From Candidatus Aerophobus profundus SCGC AAA252-L23 (GTDB taxonomy: Bacteria; Aerophobota; Aerophobia; Aerophobales; Aerophobaceae): a stretch of 55,455 nt of DNA. The position numbers and the translations under genes are program-made. The stretch's first letter is position 1. Every line of letters starts with the position of its first letter. The stretch lies in contig AQRW01000190.1 of assembly GCA_000402295.1 (NCBI GenBank), positions 1-55,455 on the forward strand, written 5' to 3'. Of the stretch, positions 26,823 through 41,090 are shown piece by piece. Below the pieces are notes generated by a model that saw only the letters and a program-made list of their open reading frames with translations, had not been told where the DNA came from and made no database searches.

Positions 26823-27047
26823 TCACAGTTCCTGCCATTTTTCCCGTGAGATGCCTATTTCCTTGATGATCTGTCGGACGAGACCTATGCTTATGTCTTT
26901 GCCTTTGTGGATGGGAAAAGGGATGATTCTTTTTTCCTCGAGATGAACCATTCTCACATGTTTTCCACCCGGTATGGGACCGACAAACCCAAGTTTTCTC
27001 AGCTTTCGGATTACCTCCGCGGGTTTAAGGGGTCGAAGTGGAGACAT
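26823..27047 (-). CDS. hicA: HicA-family toxin
   Basis: LKPAEVIRKLRKLGFVGPIPGGKHVRM...IPFPIHKGKDISIGLVRQIIKEIGISREKW. The ATG at 27047 is preceded by GAGGAAAG. Overlaps the hicB end. Confidence 0.75.
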   Translation of the reverse strand: MSPLRPLKPAEVIRKLRKLGFVGPIPGGKHVRMVHLEEKRIIPFPIHKGKDISIGLVRQIIKEIGISREKWQEL

Positions 27048-27294
27048 CTCTTTCCTCAATCTCTATTCCCGGGAGATGAGGTATCTCGAATCCCAATTGC
27101 AAAGCTAAGGTGACGTTACCTTCTATGGCATCCCTCAAATTCTCTCTTGCCTCTTCAAAGCAGTCGCCTTGGGCAAAGAATCCTGATGCCTCCGGTACTC
27201 TGGCAATCACTATTCCGTTTTCGTCTCGAAAATACTCAGCTTTTCTGAGGCATTCGTCAAGATAACGGGAGAGTGAGAAGATTCTTGCTTTCAT
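27025..27294 (-). CDS. hicB: HicB-like antitoxin
   Basis: MKARIFSL...VARVPEASGFFAQGDCFEEARENLRDAIEG pattern. Located directly upstream of hicA. Confidence 0.6.
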   Translation of the reverse strand: MKARIFSLSRYLDECLRKAEYFRDENGIVIARVPEASGFFAQGDCFEEARENLRDAIEGNVTLALQLGFEIPHLPGIEIEERDVSTSTP

Positions 27295-27330
27295 GATTTC
27301 ACCTGTGAGTCCTATCTTCACCCATAAGGA

Positions 27331-27358: not shown

Positions 27359-27370
27359 GAATTTAACATG

Positions 27371-27437
27371 TGTCAAGGGACACCATCTCTTACGAGGTTA
27401 GGGGACACCAACCTTTACGAATTATTATTCAAAAGAA
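27371..27437. repeat. dispersed about 67-bp repeat (TGTCAAGNGACACCATCTCTTACGAGGTT..GGACACCAAC.TTTACGAATTATTA.TCAAAAGAA)
   Basis: Other copies at 40302..40368 (near-identical), 43122..43213 (expanded, three sub-repeats) and 31088..31124 (partial). It contains two 17-nt direct sub-repeats: GACACCATCTCTTACGA and GACACCAACCTTTACGA. Confidence 0.8.
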
Positions 27438-27467
27438 GATCTTTGCTGTGGGATTTTATGGGGCTTT

Positions 27468-27536: not shown

Positions 27537-27872
27537 TTAAAGAAATTCGATGTGATTTTCCATTTCTTGCTGACTAAGAAGCTGGGCAACGAGTTCAATC
27601 ATACGAATACACTGTCCTACAGACAAACGCAAGGGATGAGCGTATAAGATCCCTCTATGTTTCCTTCCCTCTTGATTCCAGCGATGAGCTATTTTGAGCA
27701 AATCTGTATCATGAGTAACAATTACTGCTCCCAATCTGGAAGCACGCTGTAGATGATATTCATCGCTTTTCCCTAAATCTTCCCTATCTCGTGCTGATAC
27801 AACCTGCAGATTCCTTCTTCTAAGACCCTCCACAATGCCCGCCTCAATATTTTCATCGCAATAGATTTTCAT
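27537..27872 (-). CDS. DUF5615-family PIN-like (Mut7-C-like) putative toxin
   Basis: MKIYCDENIEAGIVEGLRRRNLQVVSA...VIVTHDTDLL. Overlaps the stop of the upstream DUF433 gene. Confidence 0.65.
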   Translation of the reverse strand: MKIYCDENIEAGIVEGLRRRNLQVVSARDREDLGKSDEYHLQRASRLGAVIVTHDTDLLKIAHRWNQEGRKHRGILYAHPLRLSVGQCIRMIELVAQLLSQQEMENHIEFL

Positions 27873-28189
27873 TCCTCAGACTTGGTCTTTAATTTAGATG
27901 GGTAAAGATTTCTCAGTTCTTTCAGGAAGATCTCCTCTTTTTTGTATGCGTTATCCAGCTCCAATTTGTTTTCATAGTAGTAGGAAAGAGCATCATGAAT
28001 TTGAGCCAGAGTTAAGTGAGGGAACTGTTGTATCATCTCATCCGGTGTCATCCCCCCGAATTCGTATCGAATAGCAATATCCATAACCTTGGTGCGTGTT
28101 CCCGCAATTACGGGAGTTTCCTTCCTAATTCCGGGATCAACGGTCACATAGGGATGTTTCAATTCACTTGGCCTGACATTGGTAGACAT
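27869..28189 (-). CDS. DUF433 domain protein (putative antitoxin partner)
   Basis: HPYVTVDPGIRKETPVIAGTRTKVMDIAIRYEFGGMTPDEMIQQFPHLTLAQIHDALSYYYEN is the classic DUF433 pattern. Confidence 0.75.
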   Translation of the reverse strand: MSTNVRPSELKHPYVTVDPGIRKETPVIAGTRTKVMDIAIRYEFGGMTPDEMIQQFPHLTLAQIHDALSYYYENKLELDNAYKKEEIFLKELRNLYPSKLKTKSEE

Positions 28190-28224
28190 CTCTGCCTCCT
28201 TACTCTTTATTGACAGTGTTCAGA

Positions 28225-28414
28225 CATTGTAATAATCGAAGATTTCAAGACCTTGTGTAGTGAGTTTGATAACTCTATTTGCCTTATCTTAACTTTCTTT
28301 GATGAAGGGTAGATGTTTCTCTTTCGTTGTCTCAACTATCGTTCTGGGTTTTTGCGTTGCTTGGTATTGTATACTTTCTTTGCCAGATGTCCAATCTTGC
28401 CAAAAAGGGACGGT
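28225..28414. repeat. 190-bp cassette shared with 40901..41090; carries a minus-strand TTGGAC-17-TACAAT promoter
   Basis: Gap-free alignment by eye to 40901..41090. The -35 is at 28394-28389 and the -10 at 28371-28366 (minus strand). In the second copy they are at 41070-41065 and 41047-41042. Confidence 0.8.
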
Positions 28415-28536
28415 GGAAATGGTAAACTGAATTCCTGGTACTATGGTAAACAGAAATCCTATATGGATGGTAAACAGAAATCCCATTTCGGAAGAGCTCC
28501 TGTATAGTTTTAGAAAACTCTACAGGAGAGGAAATG
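28414..28536 (+). mobile_element. solo left end of the IS21-family element (no transposase)
   Basis: Matches 35638..35808 from the terminal TGGAAATGGTAAACTG through the istA ATG, but with 3 rather than 5 of the 24-bp phased GGTAAACAGAAATCC repeats (at 28421, 28445, 28469). Similarity ends right after the ATG. Confidence 0.8.
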
Positions 28537-34994: not shown

Positions 34995-35510
34995 CCCTGT
35001 CCTGTCGCAAGCTGAGGAGTTAATATGGCAAACCCATGTATAAATGCAGGAAATCAAGTCCTATTGAGTACAAAATAAAGGCCCATACTTATAAGAGAAT
35101 CCAGTTTTGGAAGAATCTAGTAGTTAGTTTCCAAAATAACCTGATATTTCTCCAAATACATATTCCGGTGAAACTTACCACCTGTTCCGGTTTAAATTTA
35201 CCACTGATTCACCTTTCACATTCCCCTCTGGTTATCTTAGCAAAAGTGGTAACTTTGGGTCAGATTATAGTGAAACCAAACTTAGCGGGAGAGATGCTAT
35301 GGCGAAGAGGTAAGGGGGTATTCAGTGGAATAAAAAGATGACTTAAACTGTCACTTTGACTTTCCCAATCATAAGGTTTTCCCCCTCAAATTTCTTCCCT
35401 ATCGATTACCAAAATTACCAGAAAATCCCACCTCTTTGGAATGAAGATGATGTTACCAGAACTCACTAGTTATCTTTAGACATGGTTTCATCTTGGATTG
35501 CCCTCTTTGG

Positions 35511-35637
35511 TTACAAAAACTCAATTGTATTGGTCATGTCCTTTTGCGATCGAGCTTCAACCAACGACTTAATCCTTCGGATACATTCGCCAGTGGATAA
35601 TCTTTGTTGATGTACATAGATTATGCCGTAGTGCTTT
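35511..35637 (-). pseudogene. 3' part of a DUF5615 PIN-like toxin gene severed by the IS21 insertion
   Basis: Encodes HYGIIYVHQQRLSTGECIRRIKSLVEARSQKDMTNTIEFL*, collinear with HRGILYAHPLRLSVGQCIRMIELVAQLLSQQEMENHIEFL* of the intact paralog at 27537..27872. Confidence 0.85.
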
Positions 35638-35805
35638 TGGAAATGGTAAACTGAATTACTGGTACTATGGTAAACAGAAATCCCATGGTAGTGGTAAATA
35701 GAATTCCCATGGTAATGGTAAGCAGAAATCCTATATGGATGGTAAACAGAATTCCCATCTCGGAAGAACTCCTGTATAGTTTTAGAAAACTTTACAGGAG
35801 AGGAA

Positions 35806-37365
35806 ATGATAAGAGAAAAAATGTACGAAAAAGTTCAACTTTTGAAAAGACTGGGATATCCCAGATCAAAGATAAGCTCTGATCTGGAAATAGACCCCAG
35901 GACCGCGGCCAAGTATTACGTTATGGATGAAAGGCAGTTCAAGACTTACCGCAGAGAGCACATGTTTCGGGATAAGGTGCTGGAAGAATATAAGGAAGAT
36001 ATCCTCAAAGTGTACAAGGTAAATGAATTTCACAGGCTTAATATGAGTGCCGTATATGATTATCTGGAAGAGAAATATGGCCCTCTTGCGGCCAATGAAC
36101 AAACCTTGCGCAACTACATAGATTATCTTATTAAGACAGACAAGTTAAGGTTGAATGAGAAGATAAGACTCTATTGCGAAGTTCCGGAACTTCCCTTTGG
36201 AAAACAGATGCAGCTTGATTTTGGCCAGTACCGGTGCAAAAGTGGACTTAAGCTCTATATATTTGCCTCTTTGCTTTCGGCAAGTCGCTATAAGTACGTC
36301 AATTTTCAGGACCATCCCTTCAGGACAAAGGAGGTTATTGGTCATCTGCTTAATTGTTTTGATTATTTCAGAGGAGTACCTGAGGAGATGGTTATTGATC
36401 AGGATAACTTAATGGTAGTGAGCGAGAATGCCGGGGACATAATCTACACCGATGATTTTAAGTATTTTATCGAGGAGCAAAAGATAAGAATGTATGTGTG
36501 CCGGGCAGCAGATCCTGAAACAAAAGGAAAAATTGAGAACCTCATTAAATTTGTAAAAAGCAATTTGCTCTCGATAAGGGATTTTAAGAGTGCAGATGAG
36601 GCAAATGAAAGTGGGTTTAAATGGCTCAAAAGAAGGGCAAACGGGAAGATATCCCAGGCTACCAAGCAGATACCGGCACTTCTGATTGATGAGGAAAGAG
36701 AACACCTTAGATCTGTAGGGAACTCCCTATTCAGGAAAGGCTCCCTTATAGGCAGAGAAAAGAGGAATGCAAACGAGAAAGCTTGTATATCAGTAGAAGC
36801 CTCGAGCTATCAGCTGCCTTTAAAATATCAGAACAAAACCGTTGAGATCTACCTCACCAAACACAAGCTTTTCGTCTTTGATCTCTACACAGCAAAGGAG
36901 ATTATTGAGTATGAGCTTTCTCCTATTCCCGGAAGAATATTCTCTAAGAGAGAACACCGAAGGGAGAGGGAGAAAACAGCCCAGGAGCTGAAAACGCTTG
37001 TTTCTGAGATGTTTGAATCAAAGAGCTGGAAGAGCTTTACCATGAGGAATTTTAAAGCCTTTTCCCGGTATGTCAGAGACCAATGTCTGGAGGCGAAAAG
37101 ATACTTTCTGGTCAAGGATATTGACCTTGATATTCTGGAGCAAGCTCTCAAATATTGCCTCAAGAATGATACGCTAAGTTTTTCCCACTTGAATGATACC
37201 TATGCCTATTTTAAGCATGAGTCTGAGGGACCCAATGATATCCTCAAGGAAATACAAACACTGGACCGCAAGTACCAAGGTGCGCATGAACCTTTAGAGG
37301 TCAATGAGAGAAGTTTATCTGTGTATAAAGAGCTCATCGGGATAAGCAAAGGAGCAGTTACATGA
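35806..37365 (+). CDS. istA: IS21-family transposase IstA
   Basis: 519 aa. N-terminal HTH, DDE-region pattern (QMQLDFGQY..., VIDQDNLMV, PETKGKIENLIKFVK). Overlaps istB by ATGA. Confidence 0.85.
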   Translation: MIREKMYEKVQLLKRLGYPRSKISSDLEIDPRTAAKYYVMDERQFKTYRREHMFRDKVLEEYKEDILKVYKVNEFHRLNMSAVYDYLEEKYGPLAANEQTLRNYIDYLIKTDKLRLNEKIRLYCEVPELPFGKQMQLDFGQYRCKSGLKLYIFASLLSASRYKYVNFQDHPFRTKEVIGHLLNCFDYFRGVPEEMVIDQDNLMVVSENAGDIIYTDDFKYFIEEQKIRMYVCRAADPETKGKIENLIKFVKSNLLSIRDFKSADEANESGFKWLKRRANGKISQATKQIPALLIDEEREHLRSVGNSLFRKGSLIGREKRNANEKACISVEASSYQLPLKYQNKTVEIYLTKHKLFVFDLYTAKEIIEYELSPIPGRIFSKREHRREREKTAQELKTLVSEMFESKSWKSFTMRNFKAFSRYVRDQCLEAKRYFLVKDIDLDILEQALKYCLKNDTLSFSHLNDTYAYFKHESEGPNDILKEIQTLDRKYQGAHEPLEVNERSLSVYKELIGISKGAVT

Positions 37366-38105
37366 AAGCCTATGAAGAGACTCTGAGCTTTTTAAGCACC
37401 CTGAATCTGAAAGGAATAGCCAATAATCTTGATGAAATGATACATGATGCAGAGATAAGCAAAACCTCCTATATTACCTTTCTCAACACCCTATTTACCA
37501 CTGAGATATCTTATAGAGTTAAACGCCGTGTGCAGAGAAACATGGTGGCAGCTCATTTTCCCGTGATAAAGAGAATTTCGGATTTTGAGTTTGGCCGGGT
37601 CAAGGGAATAGGAAAATCAGAAGCGGTAAATCTTCTTGACTGTGCTTGGATAGATAACAAAGAGAATCTCTTATTCTTTGGTCCCCCTGGTGTAGGGAAA
37701 ACGCACTTAGCCATATCCTTTGCGGTGGCTGCTGTAGAAAAAGGATATAGTGTTTGTTTTGAGAAAATTGCCAACCTCATCAAGCTTTTGAGAACGGCAG
37801 AGATCCAGAAAAAATCTGAATACCGGATCAGAAGAATAATGAAGTCAAGCCTAGCCGTAATTGACGAGATCGGATACACTTCGATTGAGAGACGAGAGGC
37901 CAATTTGTTTTTCAACCTGATTAGTGAAATGTATGAAAAATTATCCATTATCATTACTTCCAATAAAAGTTTTGAGAACTGGGCTGAGATGATGGGTGAC
38001 AGTGTCATGACCACAGCGTTGCTGGACAGACTATTGCATCACGCTAGGATTTTCAATATAGATGGAGAATCCTACAGAATAAAAAATCAGAAAAAGGAGG
38101 TGTGA
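37362..38105 (+). CDS. istB: IS21-family helper ATPase IstB
   Basis: Walker A FFGPPGVGKTHLA, Walker B LAVIDEIGY, ALLDRLLHH. Confidence 0.9.
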   Translation: MKAYEETLSFLSTLNLKGIANNLDEMIHDAEISKTSYITFLNTLFTTEISYRVKRRVQRNMVAAHFPVIKRISDFEFGRVKGIGKSEAVNLLDCAWIDNKENLLFFGPPGVGKTHLAISFAVAAVEKGYSVCFEKIANLIKLLRTAEIQKKSEYRIRRIMKSSLAVIDEIGYTSIERREANLFFNLISEMYEKLSIIITSNKSFENWAEMMGDSVMTTALLDRLLHHARIFNIDGESYRIKNQKKEV

Positions 38106-38194
38106 TCATTTCTAACTTCTTGAGAAATGGGAAATCTGTTTACCGGAACACTGGGAAATGTACTTACCGAAGGGGTGGGAAAAGTACTTGACAT

Positions 38195-38422
38195 TTACAG
38201 CTTTAGCTCATGTTCTTTTGCCAGAGCAAGAAAGTCATCGTCGTGCGTAAATATGGTCAACTTCTTTTCTGAGGCAAACTTCAATTGAGCTTTGTCAGTA
38301 AGTCCTAGGTTTCCGACATCTTTGGCCGAGATAGCCTTCACACCCCGACGCCTTAAACCCTGGGCAATTGCCACATTTGCACTTTCATTGGTGTAGATGC
38401 AGATTGTTTCCTGCTTACTCAT
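38195..38422 (-). pseudogene. 5' part of the IS21-disrupted DUF5615 PIN-like toxin gene
   Basis: MSKQETICIYTNESANVAIAQGLRRRGVKAISA...IFTHDDDFL. The last codons and the stop (CTG TAA) are supplied by the IS end. Confidence 0.85.
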
Positions 38423-38712
38423 TTATCTTTAAGTTGATACTGTTTCCTTAGTTTCTCCACTTGGGCTTTCCGTTGTCTAATTTCTCGGTCCAACTCTTCT
38501 CTATGTTCATAGTAATAGGATAGAACATCGTGTACCTGGGACAAATCCAGATATGGATGAGCATCAATAATCTCATCGGGCGTATAACCTAAGTACTCGT
38601 ACTCAATAACTAGGTCGATCACCCTTGTTCTGGTTCCGGAGATAACGGGGCTTCCTCCACATATGCTCTTATCCCGGATAATATAGGGATGTGTAGTCAC
38701 TGTTTTGCTCAT
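38419..38712 (-). CDS. DUF433 domain protein (partner of the disrupted DUF5615 gene)
   Basis: HPYIIRDKSICGGSPVISGTRTRVIDLVIEYEYLGYTPDEIIDAHPYLDLSQVHDVLSYYYEH. Confidence 0.75.
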   Translation of the reverse strand: MSKTVTTHPYIIRDKSICGGSPVISGTRTRVIDLVIEYEYLGYTPDEIIDAHPYLDLSQVHDVLSYYYEHREELDREIRQRKAQVEKLRKQYQLKDK

Positions 38713-39042
38713 TTTATGACCTCTCCAGGATTGTATTAGCAAATTCCAAGCACAAAACTCGAAACTATTCTATACTTACCTTGCTGTCCCTAAGTTTTTG
38801 CAAAAGCTTTCTTATGCTCCTTCTTACTTGTTCCCACGCCTTCTGCTCATCAAGAAACTTCTTGGCCGGTTTGGAATATTCTACTTTCCACTTCTCACCT
38901 CTATTTCTTATCCACCAAAGACTGTAGTGACCAGCAGGGAGATGTCAAGGGGAAGGAAAGGAGGAATAGTGACCACGGTGGCGTGTTTGAGGCAGTTGTG
39001 GAAAATAGATGAGATATGTATGCGCGGTAGGCCCGTAGAGCA

Positions 39043-39210
39043 TTAGTATATCTCATTGTGACTGCCCATATCTATCAGGAGTACTTCCTTGTGGCCCTTC
39101 GCGAATTTGAAGACAACCCGGGTCCAGAATTTCTTCCTTAGCCTACGATTATTCTTGATATTCCTTCGGTAACTTCTTTTGAACCCCTCGTCCCAAACGA
39201 GTTTAACCAC
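39043..39210 (-). pseudogene. RelE/YafQ-like toxin remnant with an apparent internal deletion (55 aa)
   Basis: VVKLVWDEGFKRSYRRNIKNNRRLRKKFWTRV fused to VFKFAKGHKEVLLIDMGSHNEIY*. The central region of the fold is missing. The upstream antitoxin-like frame (...ARRAKQAMADYRRGNVERGSVKELHQDLESG*) contains stops. Confidence 0.45.
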
Positions 39211-39602
39211 TTTCTAAGTCCTGGTGTAATTCCTTTACGCTTCCCCTTTCTACGTTCCCCCTGCGGTAGTCAGCCATTGCTTGCTTGGCTCGGCGGGCAA
39301 TCTGCTTTCTTCTTGCCTCAACCAATTGTTTCTCAATAATCTTGAGCTACATATTCTTTATCTGTTGCCGGAAGCTTACCTTATTTGGTTTCTCGCAATA
39401 CCTTTGGCTGAATAATACTCTGTGCTCCGCCCGAGTCAATTGTCAGTTTGTTCCTCAAAGCACCCTTGCATAGTCTTTGAAATATCTTCTTGCGCCAACA
39501 GCCTCACCTACCAAGGTAGCGATGTTAAGTTTTCGTTGCGTCGGAGTGTGTTTACCTTTTTGGTAGTTACATGATAATCGGATAGCCATAGTCTTCGCCA
39601 GT

Positions 39603-39872
39603 TTATCTTATGAGTTTTCTCAAAGTCTGATAAAAACCTTCCCTGGAATTTACCAGAACAATCTCAATTTGGTTCTTATTTTCGCGAACCCGATAAGCAA
39701 TCCGATACGCCGCTCTTTTGTGTGCAAAATGGTAAGATCTGATTCCTCGTAACGGACCTCTTAGTTCCTCATAGTGATGTGGATCTTCGGCTAACTTTAA
39801 AGCTTCCTATTTAATCTTCTGTTGCAAAGGTGGACTAAACTTCCTGTATCGTCTGTGAGCGGAGGGAGTCAT
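39603..39872 (-). pseudogene. RelE/ParE-family toxin with an in-frame TAG (39807-39809)
   Basis: MTPSAHRRYRKFSPPLQQKIK*EALKLAEDPHHYEELRGPLRGIRSYHFAHKRAAYRIAYRVRENKNQIEIVLVNSREGFY. Confidence 0.7.
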
Positions 39873-39888
39873 CAATACCTGATACCGT

Positions 39889-40083
39889 TTACCACTTTTC
39901 AATTGGTATTCCTTTGCCTTGATCTAACTCTTCAAGGGATTTGCCAATAGTTGCATAAGCCTTCTTGTTTAGAATAATCTCCAGGGTTTCAATCTCAGCG
40001 GAACTAAGTCCTTTTAGCAAATAGGATAGCCGTTCTAAATTGACTAGGTCATATTTGTTCATTTGCTTTAAGGCTTCAGACAT
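39889..40083 (-). CDS. putative antitoxin of the relE-like pseudogene
   Basis: An intact 64-aa ORF ending 17 nt upstream of the relE-like start. There is no strong family motif, so the call rests on position. Confidence 0.4.
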   Translation of the reverse strand: MSEALKQMNKYDLVNLERLSYLLKGLSSAEIETLEIILNKKAYATIGKSLEELDQGKGIPIEKW

Positions 40084-40249
40084 CTTTTCTACCTCCTCAT
40101 AATTTGCTGGTCTCGTGGATGTCGTGTGTCTGGCGTGAGGTCAAAATCGGTTGAGTCGACTGGGCGGTTGAGGCCAGACGTTCAGCCCATACCTCTTATT
40201 CCCTTTACCAGAGCCATTATGACAAAAATAAGGAAAAAGGTCAAGGGCT

Positions 40250-40299
40250 TATCTCGTGCTGATACAACCTGCAGATTCCTTCTTCTAAGACCCTCCACA
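40250..40299. repeat. 50-bp exact fragment of the DUF5615 gene (identical to 27785..27834)
   Basis: TATCTCGTGCTGATACAACCTGCAGATTCCTTCTTCTAAGACCCTCCACA occurs at both places. Here it is fused directly to the TGTCAAG-type repeat. Confidence 0.85.
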
Positions 40300-40402
40300 G
40301 ATGTCAAGTGACACCATCTCTTGCGAGGTTGGTGGACACCAACTTTTACGAATTATTACTCAAAAGAAAATCTTTACTGTAGGGTTTTTGGGTCCCCGAT
40401 GA

Positions 40403-40865: not shown

Positions 40866-40900
40866 ATTTCCTCCACGGCTGCTTGTCTTTTGGTCTATAA

Positions 40901-41090
40901 CATTGTGACAATTGAAGATTCCCAGATCTTGTGTAGTGAGTTTGACAACTCTATTTGCCTTAGGTTAACTTTCTCTGATGAGGGGTAGATGTTTCTCTTT
41001 CGTTGTCTCAACTATCGTTCTGGGTTTTTGCTTTGCTTGGTATTGTATACTTTCTTTGCCAGATGTCCAATCTTGCCAAAAAGGGACGGT
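40901..41090. repeat. second copy of the 190-bp promoter/leader cassette
   Basis: See 28225..28414. Confidence 0.8.

What the first reader, a model, noticed from the sequence alone, without database searches (positions are those of the whole stretch)
35511..38422. Exactly reconstructable IS21 insertion into the PIN-like toxin of a DUF433/DUF5615 pair
IS boundaries are 35638 and 38199, flanked by GCTTT on both sides.

Removing the IS and one GCTTT copy joins 38205..38422 to 35511..35637 on the minus strand. The result is a 345-nt in-frame ORF of 114 aa. Its junction sequence ...KEHELKHYGIIYVHQQRLS... is collinear with ...NQEGRKHRGILYAHPLRLS... of the intact paralog at 27537..27872.

The DUF433 partner upstream (38419..38712) is intact. 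The IS end itself supplies the stop codon of the truncated toxin.
Basis: seen in the sequence. Interest (0 to 1): 0.6.

Follow-up and report, generated by a model that had tools for sequence, protein, structure and literature searches.

The report
Jumping gene splits a toxin gene
A 2.6-kb insertion sequence of the IS21 family has landed inside the toxin gene of a small toxin-antitoxin pair in an uncultured Aerophobetes bacterium, and unbroken copies of the same gene in other public datasets show exactly where; this is a clean but ordinary event.

Summary
A 2562-bp element (35638..38199; TG...CA ends, istA + istB) is flanked by GCTTT on both sides. Removing it and one GCTTT gives a 345-nt, 114-aa DUF5615 ORF.

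The reconstruction is now backed by real DNA. Four public contigs (L005, L020, L021, L022; about 97% nt identity) carry the uninterrupted DUF433/DUF5615 pair. In L005 the two window flanks overlap by exactly one GCTTT. An independent Logan contig (L028, seen in 4 samples) crosses the toxin/IS junction at 100% identity, so the insertion is not a misassembly.

The element meets the IS21 criteria: a DDE IstA, an IstB ATPase above the NCBIfam cut-off, 24-bp phased terminal repeats and a 5-bp duplication. Its IstA is only about 30-33% identical to plasmid-borne IS21 transposases, so it is an unnamed member.

The truncated product (74 native residues + Leu) loses two of five strands and the long C-terminal helix, and is probably dead. 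The DUF433 antitoxin is intact.

The same toxin is broken in three other ways in near-identical contigs: a frameshift and two rearrangements. This is an ordinary event in a decaying TA island, so interest is low.

The parts
35638..38199 (+). Complete IS21-family insertion sequence, 2562 bp, ends 5'-TG...CA-3'
   Evidence: Boundaries come from the empty-site contig L005. It is the only full copy in the 2.3-Mb assembly.
35633..35637 (.). Left copy of the 5-bp target-site duplication GCTTT
   Evidence: It is present once in L005.
38200..38204 (.). Right copy of the 5-bp target-site duplication GCTTT
35638..35757 (+). Left terminal region: five phased 24-bp repeats (core GGTAAACAGAAWTCCCA), presumed IstA binding sites
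   Evidence: IS21 TIRs are built of direct repeats separated by 23 bp (PMC10122671).
35806..37365 (+). istA, 519-aa DDE transposase (D138, D198, E244)
   Evidence: NF033546 E 1.9e-42. PDB IS5376 IstA E 1e-12.
37362..38105 (+). istB, 247-aa AAA+ helper ATPase (Walker A GPPGVGKT, Walker B VIDE); its start overlaps the istA stop (ATGA)
   Evidence: PF01695 E 5.5e-77. NF038214 scores 261 bits against a cut-off of 200.
38128..38199 (+). Right terminal region: three phased 24-bp repeats ending ...TTTACA
38195..38422 (-). Truncated toxin ORF: 74 native DUF5615 residues + Leu, with the TAA stop inside the IS end
   Evidence: P0043. The junction was assembled independently in Logan contig L028.
35511..35637 (-). 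Detached 3' part of the toxin gene (2nd base of codon 75 through codon 114 plus stop), without a start codon
38419..38712 (-). Intact DUF433 (COG2442) antitoxin gene, 97 aa
   Evidence: PF04255 E 3.9e-15. It is 48% identical to the paralog. Public homologs of >=90% identity are mostly 97 aa.
27537..28189 (-). Intact paralogous DUF433 (27869..28189) / DUF5615 (27537..27872) pair used as the yardstick
28414..28536 (+). Solo left end of the same IS (three 24-bp repeats, up to the istA ATG), a remnant of an earlier copy

Best explanation
An IS21-family insertion sequence transposed into the DUF5615 (Mut7-C/COG4634-type, PIN-like) toxin gene of a DUF433/DUF5615 type II toxin-antitoxin operon in a Candidatus Aerophobetes genome.

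Shown: the element carries intact istA (DDE transposase) and istB (AAA+ helper) genes. It has TG...CA ends with 24-bp phased repeats. It sits after the first base of codon 75, flanked by a 5-bp duplication (GCTTT). The pre-insertion allele exists in nature with a single GCTTT.

Inferred from IS21 biochemistry (PMC10122671; PMC11208146 abstract): an IstA tetramer synapsed the two repeat-bearing ends, IstB presented the target, and strand transfer across a 5-bp stagger followed by repair made the duplication.

Consequence, shown: the toxin ORF now ends after 74 native residues plus Leu at a TAA inside the IS. Inferred: the product lacks beta4, alpha4, alpha5 and beta5 of the predicted five-stranded alpha/beta fold. 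It also lacks the invariant residues G77, Y80, G89 and L114. It is therefore very probably non-toxic, which leaves an orphan DUF433 antitoxin.

The event looks recent. The duplication is perfect, both IS genes are open, and the two toxin fragments carry no further stops or frameshifts.

It is one of several independent ways in which this toxin has been lost in related populations. That fits relaxed selection on the toxin, or selection against it, in a recombining TA island.
For:: boundaries, 5-bp duplication and the empty site in L005; three more uninterrupted alleles (L020, L021, L022).

Logan contig L028 (4 samples) is 100% identical across the toxin/IS-right-end junction.

IstA and IstB family assignment, DDE and Walker motifs, and full-length 30-33% matches to annotated IS21 transposases.

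IS5376 makes 5-bp direct repeats, and its TIRs are built of direct repeats separated by 23 bp.

the relative in L010 (Ca. Aminicenans) is flanked by the 5-bp CACGC; both ends of a second copy in this genome are flanked by ACATT.

invariant residues and secondary structure lost by the truncation.

independent lesions of the same toxin in other contigs.
Against: No expression or toxicity data exist, so 'toxin inactive' is inferred.

All four invariant acidic residues (E13, D43, D61, D63) lie in the retained 74 residues. A residual function of the fragment, such as antitoxin binding, cannot be excluded.

IstA scores below NCBIfam's curated cut-off (145.8 vs 160 bits).

Two relatives (L008, L009) show no duplication.

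The frequency of the insertion within the source population is therefore unknown.
Confidence: 0.95

Rival explanations
1. The IS was placed inside the toxin gene by metagenome misassembly, for example a repeat-induced chimera; the real genome has an intact toxin.
For: The genome is a 190-contig MAG at about 70% completeness. Other IS copies break contigs (C168 and C120 end inside the IS).
Against: The IS lies in the middle of a 55-kb contig and has a perfect 5-bp duplication. An independent Logan assembly contig present in 4 samples is 100% identical over 2120 bp and runs 40 nt into the IS right end. The exact 75-aa product, which needs the IS end for its last codon and stop, is on record from both NCBI and Logan.
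Confidence: 0.02
2. The insertion is not neutral decay. It is a selected knock-out of a costly toxin, leaving the DUF433 protein as an anti-addiction or regulatory factor that can neutralise the paralogous toxin at 27537..27872 or incoming copies.
For: The same toxin is independently broken by a frameshift (L017, L018), by two different rearrangements (L016, L019) and by the IS. The antitoxin is intact wherever it is visible. Cross-talk among COG2442-PIN pairs was raised as a possibility in PMC3834315.
Against: Four contigs keep the toxin intact. Toxin loss is also what neutral decay predicts, because loss of the antitoxin first would be lethal. The two antitoxins are only 48% identical. No functional data exist.
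Confidence: 0.2
3. The two ORF pieces are unrelated fragments that happen to join in frame; no single gene ever existed here.
For: None beyond the prior chance of an in-frame join (1 in 3).
Against: The Pfam match runs continuously across the junction. There is 43% identity to the paralog across the junction. Natural 114-aa alleles of 97% identity exist.
Confidence: 0.005

Closest known systems
IS5376 / IS21 (IS21 family insertion sequences)
   Same: The gene order is istA (DDE) then istB (AAA+ helper), with overlapping stop and start. The ends are TG...CA. The terminal regions are made of phased direct repeats about 23-24 bp apart. The target duplication is 5 bp, as for IS5376 (PMC10122671). 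The size is about 2.5 kb.
   Different: IstA is only about 30-33% identical to IS21 transposases on plasmids of cultured bacteria and falls just under the NCBIfam cut-off. There are five repeats at the left end and three at the right, against the two per end described for prototypical members. Close relatives (70-84% IstA identity) were found only in MAGs of uncultured lineages. ISfinder could not be consulted, so no name can be given.
VapBC10 (ssr2962/slr1767) of Synechocystis PCC 6803 and other COG2442(DUF433)-PIN pairs
   Same: A small DUF433 gene lies upstream of, and is translationally coupled to, a small PIN-like gene. The pair type is predicted as a type II TA system (PMC2701414) and was shown to be one for vapBC10 (PMC3834315).
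   Different: Whether VapC10 belongs to DUF5615 specifically was not tested here. The window's toxin belongs to the Mut7-C/COG4634 group, which has no solved structure (PMC5499597). Its model finds no significant PDB neighbour. This copy is interrupted.
IS-mediated inactivation of toxin genes leaving orphan antitoxins in chromosomal TA islands
   Same: The toxin is disrupted and the antitoxin spared. The locus sits in an island dense in TA cassettes, IS remnants and repeats.
   Different: Nothing essential differs. The added value here is the natural empty-site allele and three further independent lesions of the same gene in public data.

Membership tests
IS21 family insertion sequence | istA encoding a DDE transposase of the IS21 type | tested here: met
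   NF033546 E 1.9e-42, though 145.8 bits is below the curated 160. It aligns to the IS5376 IstA structures 8b4h/8q4d at E 1e-12, with D138, D198 and E244 in the QLD / VID / KGKIE motifs. There are full-length tblastn matches to genes annotated as IS21 family transposase.
IS21 family insertion sequence | istB encoding the AAA+ helper ATPase immediately downstream | tested here: met
   NF038214 scores 261 bits against a cut-off of 200. PF01695 E 5.5e-77. Walker A and B motifs are present. ATGA overlap with istA.
IS21 family insertion sequence | Terminal inverted repeats ending 5'-TG...CA-3' and composed of multiple direct repeats | tested here: met
   The left end is TGGAAATGG... with five 24-bp units. 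The right end is ...GACATTTACA with three units. This compares with the L1/L2 and R1/R2 repeats separated by 23 bp in PMC10122671.
IS21 family insertion sequence | Short target-site duplication (5 bp for IS5376) | tested here: met
   GCTTT x2 here, and a single copy in the empty site L005. CACGC x2 in relative L010. ACATT at both ends of the copy split over C168 and C120. L008 and L009 show none.
IS21 family insertion sequence | Transposition activity | not testable with these tools
   Only indirect evidence: intact genes, a perfect duplication, and several copies or remnants in the genome.
DUF433(COG2442)/PIN-like type II toxin-antitoxin pair | Two small adjacent co-oriented genes, antitoxin first, translationally coupled | tested here: met
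   DUF433 at 38419..38712 and toxin start at 38422, with a 4-nt ATGA overlap. The same layout is seen in the paralog and in L005 and L020-L022.
DUF433(COG2442)/PIN-like type II toxin-antitoxin pair | Family membership of both proteins | tested here: met
   PF04255 E 3.9e-15. PF18480 E 3e-14 for the restored ORF. The paralog also hits PF18478 PIN_10 at E 1.3e-8.
DUF433(COG2442)/PIN-like type II toxin-antitoxin pair | PIN-like fold with conserved acidic active-site residues | tested here: inconclusive
   E13, D43, D61 and D63 are invariant in 37 homologs. The model (pLDDT 90.6) is a five-stranded alpha/beta fold. However, Foldseek against the PDB gives no match at E <= 0.001 and no PIN domain among the 50 matches shown. 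This is consistent with the Mut7-C group having no solved structure (PMC5499597).
DUF433(COG2442)/PIN-like type II toxin-antitoxin pair | Toxin arrests growth and the antitoxin neutralises it | not testable with these tools
   Shown only for the Synechocystis COG2442-PIN pair vapBC10 (PMC3834315).

The most novel reading that the evidence does not exclude
The DUF5615 toxin of this pair is under recurrent, possibly selected, inactivation in Aerophobetes populations, while its DUF433 partner is always kept. The lesions are an IS insertion, a +1 frameshift, a microhomology-mediated 8-11-kb deletion and a cassette rearrangement. On this reading the orphan antitoxin has a function of its own, either anti-addiction against paralogous or incoming toxins or transcriptional control. 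The IS belongs to an undescribed IS21 lineage with expanded arrays of 3-5 terminal repeats that moves between candidate phyla.
Probability: 0.2. Interest if true: 0.35.

Novelty: new member of a known kind. Interest (0 to 1): 0.18.

Why it matters
It matters little beyond good annotation. The 75-aa ORF and the 3' fragment should be annotated as one IS-disrupted pseudogene, and the IS as a new IS21-family element. The locus is a tidy, fully documented example of how chromosomal TA modules decay from the toxin side, with an occupied site, an empty site, and three other independent lesions of the same gene. It also provides intact ends, duplication length and protein sequences for an IS21 lineage known only from uncultured bacteria.

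Tried and rejected
No read-level test of the occupied against the empty allele was possible, so public contigs were used instead.

Searching 40 relatives for the empty site of the second IS copy (C168/C120 flanks joined) found no contiguous match. No convincing ORF spans that join. The assignment of the two contig ends to one copy therefore rests only on the shared ACATT.

Fold search of the toxin model against the PDB gave only weak generic Rossmann-like, TIR and receiver matches. A profile search of the PDB gave nothing. No structural confirmation of 'PIN' was obtained.

The promoter/terminator scan of 35300..39000 was at chance level and is not used.

NCBIfam has no model for either TA protein.

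Misassembly was considered and rejected.

Full report
**Observation**

- GCTTT occurs at 35633-35637 and at 38200-38204, and the repeat cannot be extended to 6 nt.
- Between the two copies lies a 2562-bp element (35638..38199) that starts TGGAAATGG and ends GACATTTACA.
- Joining 38205..38422 to 35511..35637 on the minus strand gives a 345-nt ORF of 114 aa, with the junction ...KEHELKHYGIIYVHQQRLS...
- The joined protein matches Pfam DUF5615 (PF18480) in one stretch over model positions 3-104 of 110 (E 3e-14).
- It is 43% identical over 109 residues to the intact paralog at 27537..27872.
- The upstream DUF433 gene (38419..38712, 97 aa) matches the whole PF04255 model. It is 48% identical to the paralog's partner and overlaps the toxin start by ATGA.
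- The interrupted ORF (38195..38422, 75 aa) ends ...HELKL*. The insertion lies after the first base of codon 75, the Leu codon CTG spans the boundary, and the TAA stop lies inside the IS end.

**A natural empty site**

A search with the joined protein found a 114-aa protein of 97% identity (P0001). Its contig L005 (ENA ERZ23498719) carries DUF433 and DUF5615 uninterrupted.
- At the DNA level L005 aligns to window 38909..38200 (98.5%) and to 35637..35368 (93.4%).
- The two alignments overlap by exactly five bases, a single GCTTT. This fixes the IS boundaries and the 5-bp duplication from real DNA rather than from reconstruction.
- Three more contigs (L020, L021, L022; two Logan runs and a second ENA sample) cross the site in the same way at about 97% identity.
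- The restored window allele differs from L005 at four positions in 345 nt and has no stop or frameshift.

**Not a misassembly**

The exact 75-aa product is on record from NCBI and from Logan. Logan contig L028 (SRR3952012; the contig is seen in 4 samples) is 100% identical to window 40279..38160. It therefore runs 40 nt into the IS right end.

**The element**

- istA (35806..37365, 519 aa) hits NF033546 'IS21 family transposase' at E 1.9e-42. Its 145.8 bits are just under the curated 160.
- istA also aligns to the solved IS5376 IstA (8b4h, 8q4d; E 1e-12) through the motifs QMQLD, VID and KGKIE. This places the DDE triad at D138, D198 and E244.
- istB (37362..38105, 247 aa) passes NF038214 (261 vs 200 bits) and PF01695 (5.5e-77). 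It has Walker A and B motifs, and its ATG overlaps the istA stop.
- The left end carries five phased 24-bp repeats and the right end three. IS21 TIRs are built of direct repeats separated by 23 bp, and IS5376 makes 5-bp direct repeats (PMC10122671).
- The best matches on plasmids of cultured bacteria are full-length but only 30-33% identical, and all are annotated as IS21 family transposase.
- Relatives of 70-84% IstA identity occur in MAGs labelled Aerophobetes, Aminicenantes, Psychracetigena, Clostridia and one Aenigmatarchaeota bin.
- Of the relatives with both ends, L010 has a 5-bp duplication (CACGC). L008 and L009 have none.

**Other copies in this genome**

- There is one full copy, the one in the window.
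- A solo left end with three repeats lies at 28414..28536 and stops at the istA ATG.
- A second, diverged copy has its left end at the end of contig C168 (87% identity) and its right end at the end of C120.
- Both of those ends abut ACATT, consistent with another 5-bp duplication. No relative genome has the empty site to prove that the two ends belong together.

**Host**

RpoC on contig C93 is 72-78% identical to several proteins named Candidatus Aerophobetes. The next group (Bacillota) is at 53%. This assumes that binning put C93 and the window contig together correctly.

**What the truncation removes**

- In an alignment of 37 homologs the invariant residues are E13, R26, G40, D43, A50, T59, D61, D63, L65, G77, Y80, G89 and L114.
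- An AlphaFold model of the intact allele (pLDDT 90.6, pTM 0.84) has the order b1-a1-b2-a2-b3-a3-b4-a4-a5-b5.
- Truncation after residue 74 removes b4, a4, a5 and b5, along with four invariant residues.
- The acidic residues are retained, but the fold can hardly form, so I infer a null allele.
- The 'PIN-like' label rests on profiles: the Pfam clan, and the paralog's hit to PIN_10 at 1.3e-8.
- Foldseek against the PDB gave no match at E <= 0.001, and a profile search of PDB sequences gave nothing. This fits the statement in PMC5499597 that the Mut7-C/COG4634 group lacks a solved structure.
- DUF433(COG2442)-PIN pairs were predicted as TA systems in PMC2701414. One, vapBC10 of Synechocystis, was validated in E. 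coli (PMC3834315). I did not test whether VapC10 is a DUF5615 protein.

**Context: the same toxin is broken in other ways elsewhere**

Among contigs 96-99.6% identical to this locus:
- L017 and L018 carry a +1 T frameshift near codon 38.
- L019 fuses codon 53 to the middle of hicB (window 27248..27060) through a shared 13-nt TGCCTCAGAAAAG. This implies an island deletion of about 8.5 kb, or 11 kb counted on the IS-bearing window.
- L016 (GCA_030612065.1, 99.6% identical) breaks after codon about 50 and continues into a convergent DUF433 fragment.
- The DUF433 gene is intact wherever it is visible.

Together with the IS remnant and the many repeats in 26.5-43.8 kb, this shows a TA island in flux in which toxins are lost first. 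That pattern is expected, because losing the antitoxin first would be lethal. Whether the losses are selected cannot be decided here.

**Verdict**

Both the observation and the interpretation are confirmed. The mechanism is ordinary IS21-type transposition into a toxin gene. The only new items are an unnamed, divergent IS21-family element and a well-documented set of independent toxin lesions. Interest is low.

Noticed in passing
L016 1638-2004; L017; L018 393-735; L019 266-1225: The same toxin gene is broken in three other ways in contigs 96-99.6% identical to this locus. There is a +1 T frameshift near codon 38 (L017, L018). There is a break after codon ~50 joined to a convergent DUF433 fragment (L016, GCA_030612065.1). 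There is a fusion after codon 53 to hicB (L019). The DUF433 antitoxin is intact wherever it is visible.
   Followed up: yes
L019 ~410-430 versus window 38270 and 27250: The L019 junction lies in a 13-nt sequence (TGCCTCAGAAAAG) shared by the toxin gene and the hicB gene at 27025..27321. This indicates a microhomology-mediated deletion of about 8.5 kb of the island (11 kb on the IS-bearing window).
   Followed up: partly
window 28414-28536: A solo left end of the same IS has three instead of five 24-bp repeats and ends at the istA ATG, directly in front of a hicB-like gene. The sequence left of it (28224-28414) recurs at 40900-41090 without the IS end.
   Followed up: partly
G000 C168:8872-9143 and C120:14288-14384 (L002, L004): A second, diverged copy of the IS is split over two contig ends, and both flanks begin or end with ACATT. 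In C168 the 6 nt before ACATT (TTTACA) also equal the IS right terminus. This is unexplained and may be chance. The C120 right end has one more 24-bp repeat than the window copy.
   Followed up: partly
window 40250-40299: Fifty nucleotides are 100% identical to codons of the paralogous DUF5615 gene (27785-27834). They are followed by the repeat found downstream of that gene (27366-27457 ~ 40297-40388). This looks like a third, internally deleted toxin remnant.
   Followed up: no
L006-L015: Relatives of this IS (IstA 70-84% identical) occur in MAGs assigned to several candidate phyla and in one contig binned as an Aenigmatarchaeota archaeon (L015, 81%). This reflects either horizontal spread or binning error. 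L008 and L009 have complete ends but no target duplication.
   Followed up: partly
window 38387-38389 (toxin residue 12) and alignment A1: The clade containing this toxin has N-E-S (YTNES) where the paralog and many homologs have D-E-N after strand 1. E13 is invariant, while position 12 alternates between D and N, so the first acidic residue of a canonical PIN site is not conserved here.
   Followed up: no
window 35633-35368 versus L005 765-1036: DNA downstream of the toxin gene is clearly more diverged from the empty-site contig (93.4%) than the antitoxin side (98.5%). The window allele also has two private substitutions (K70E, I108T) relative to all intact alleles.
   Followed up: no
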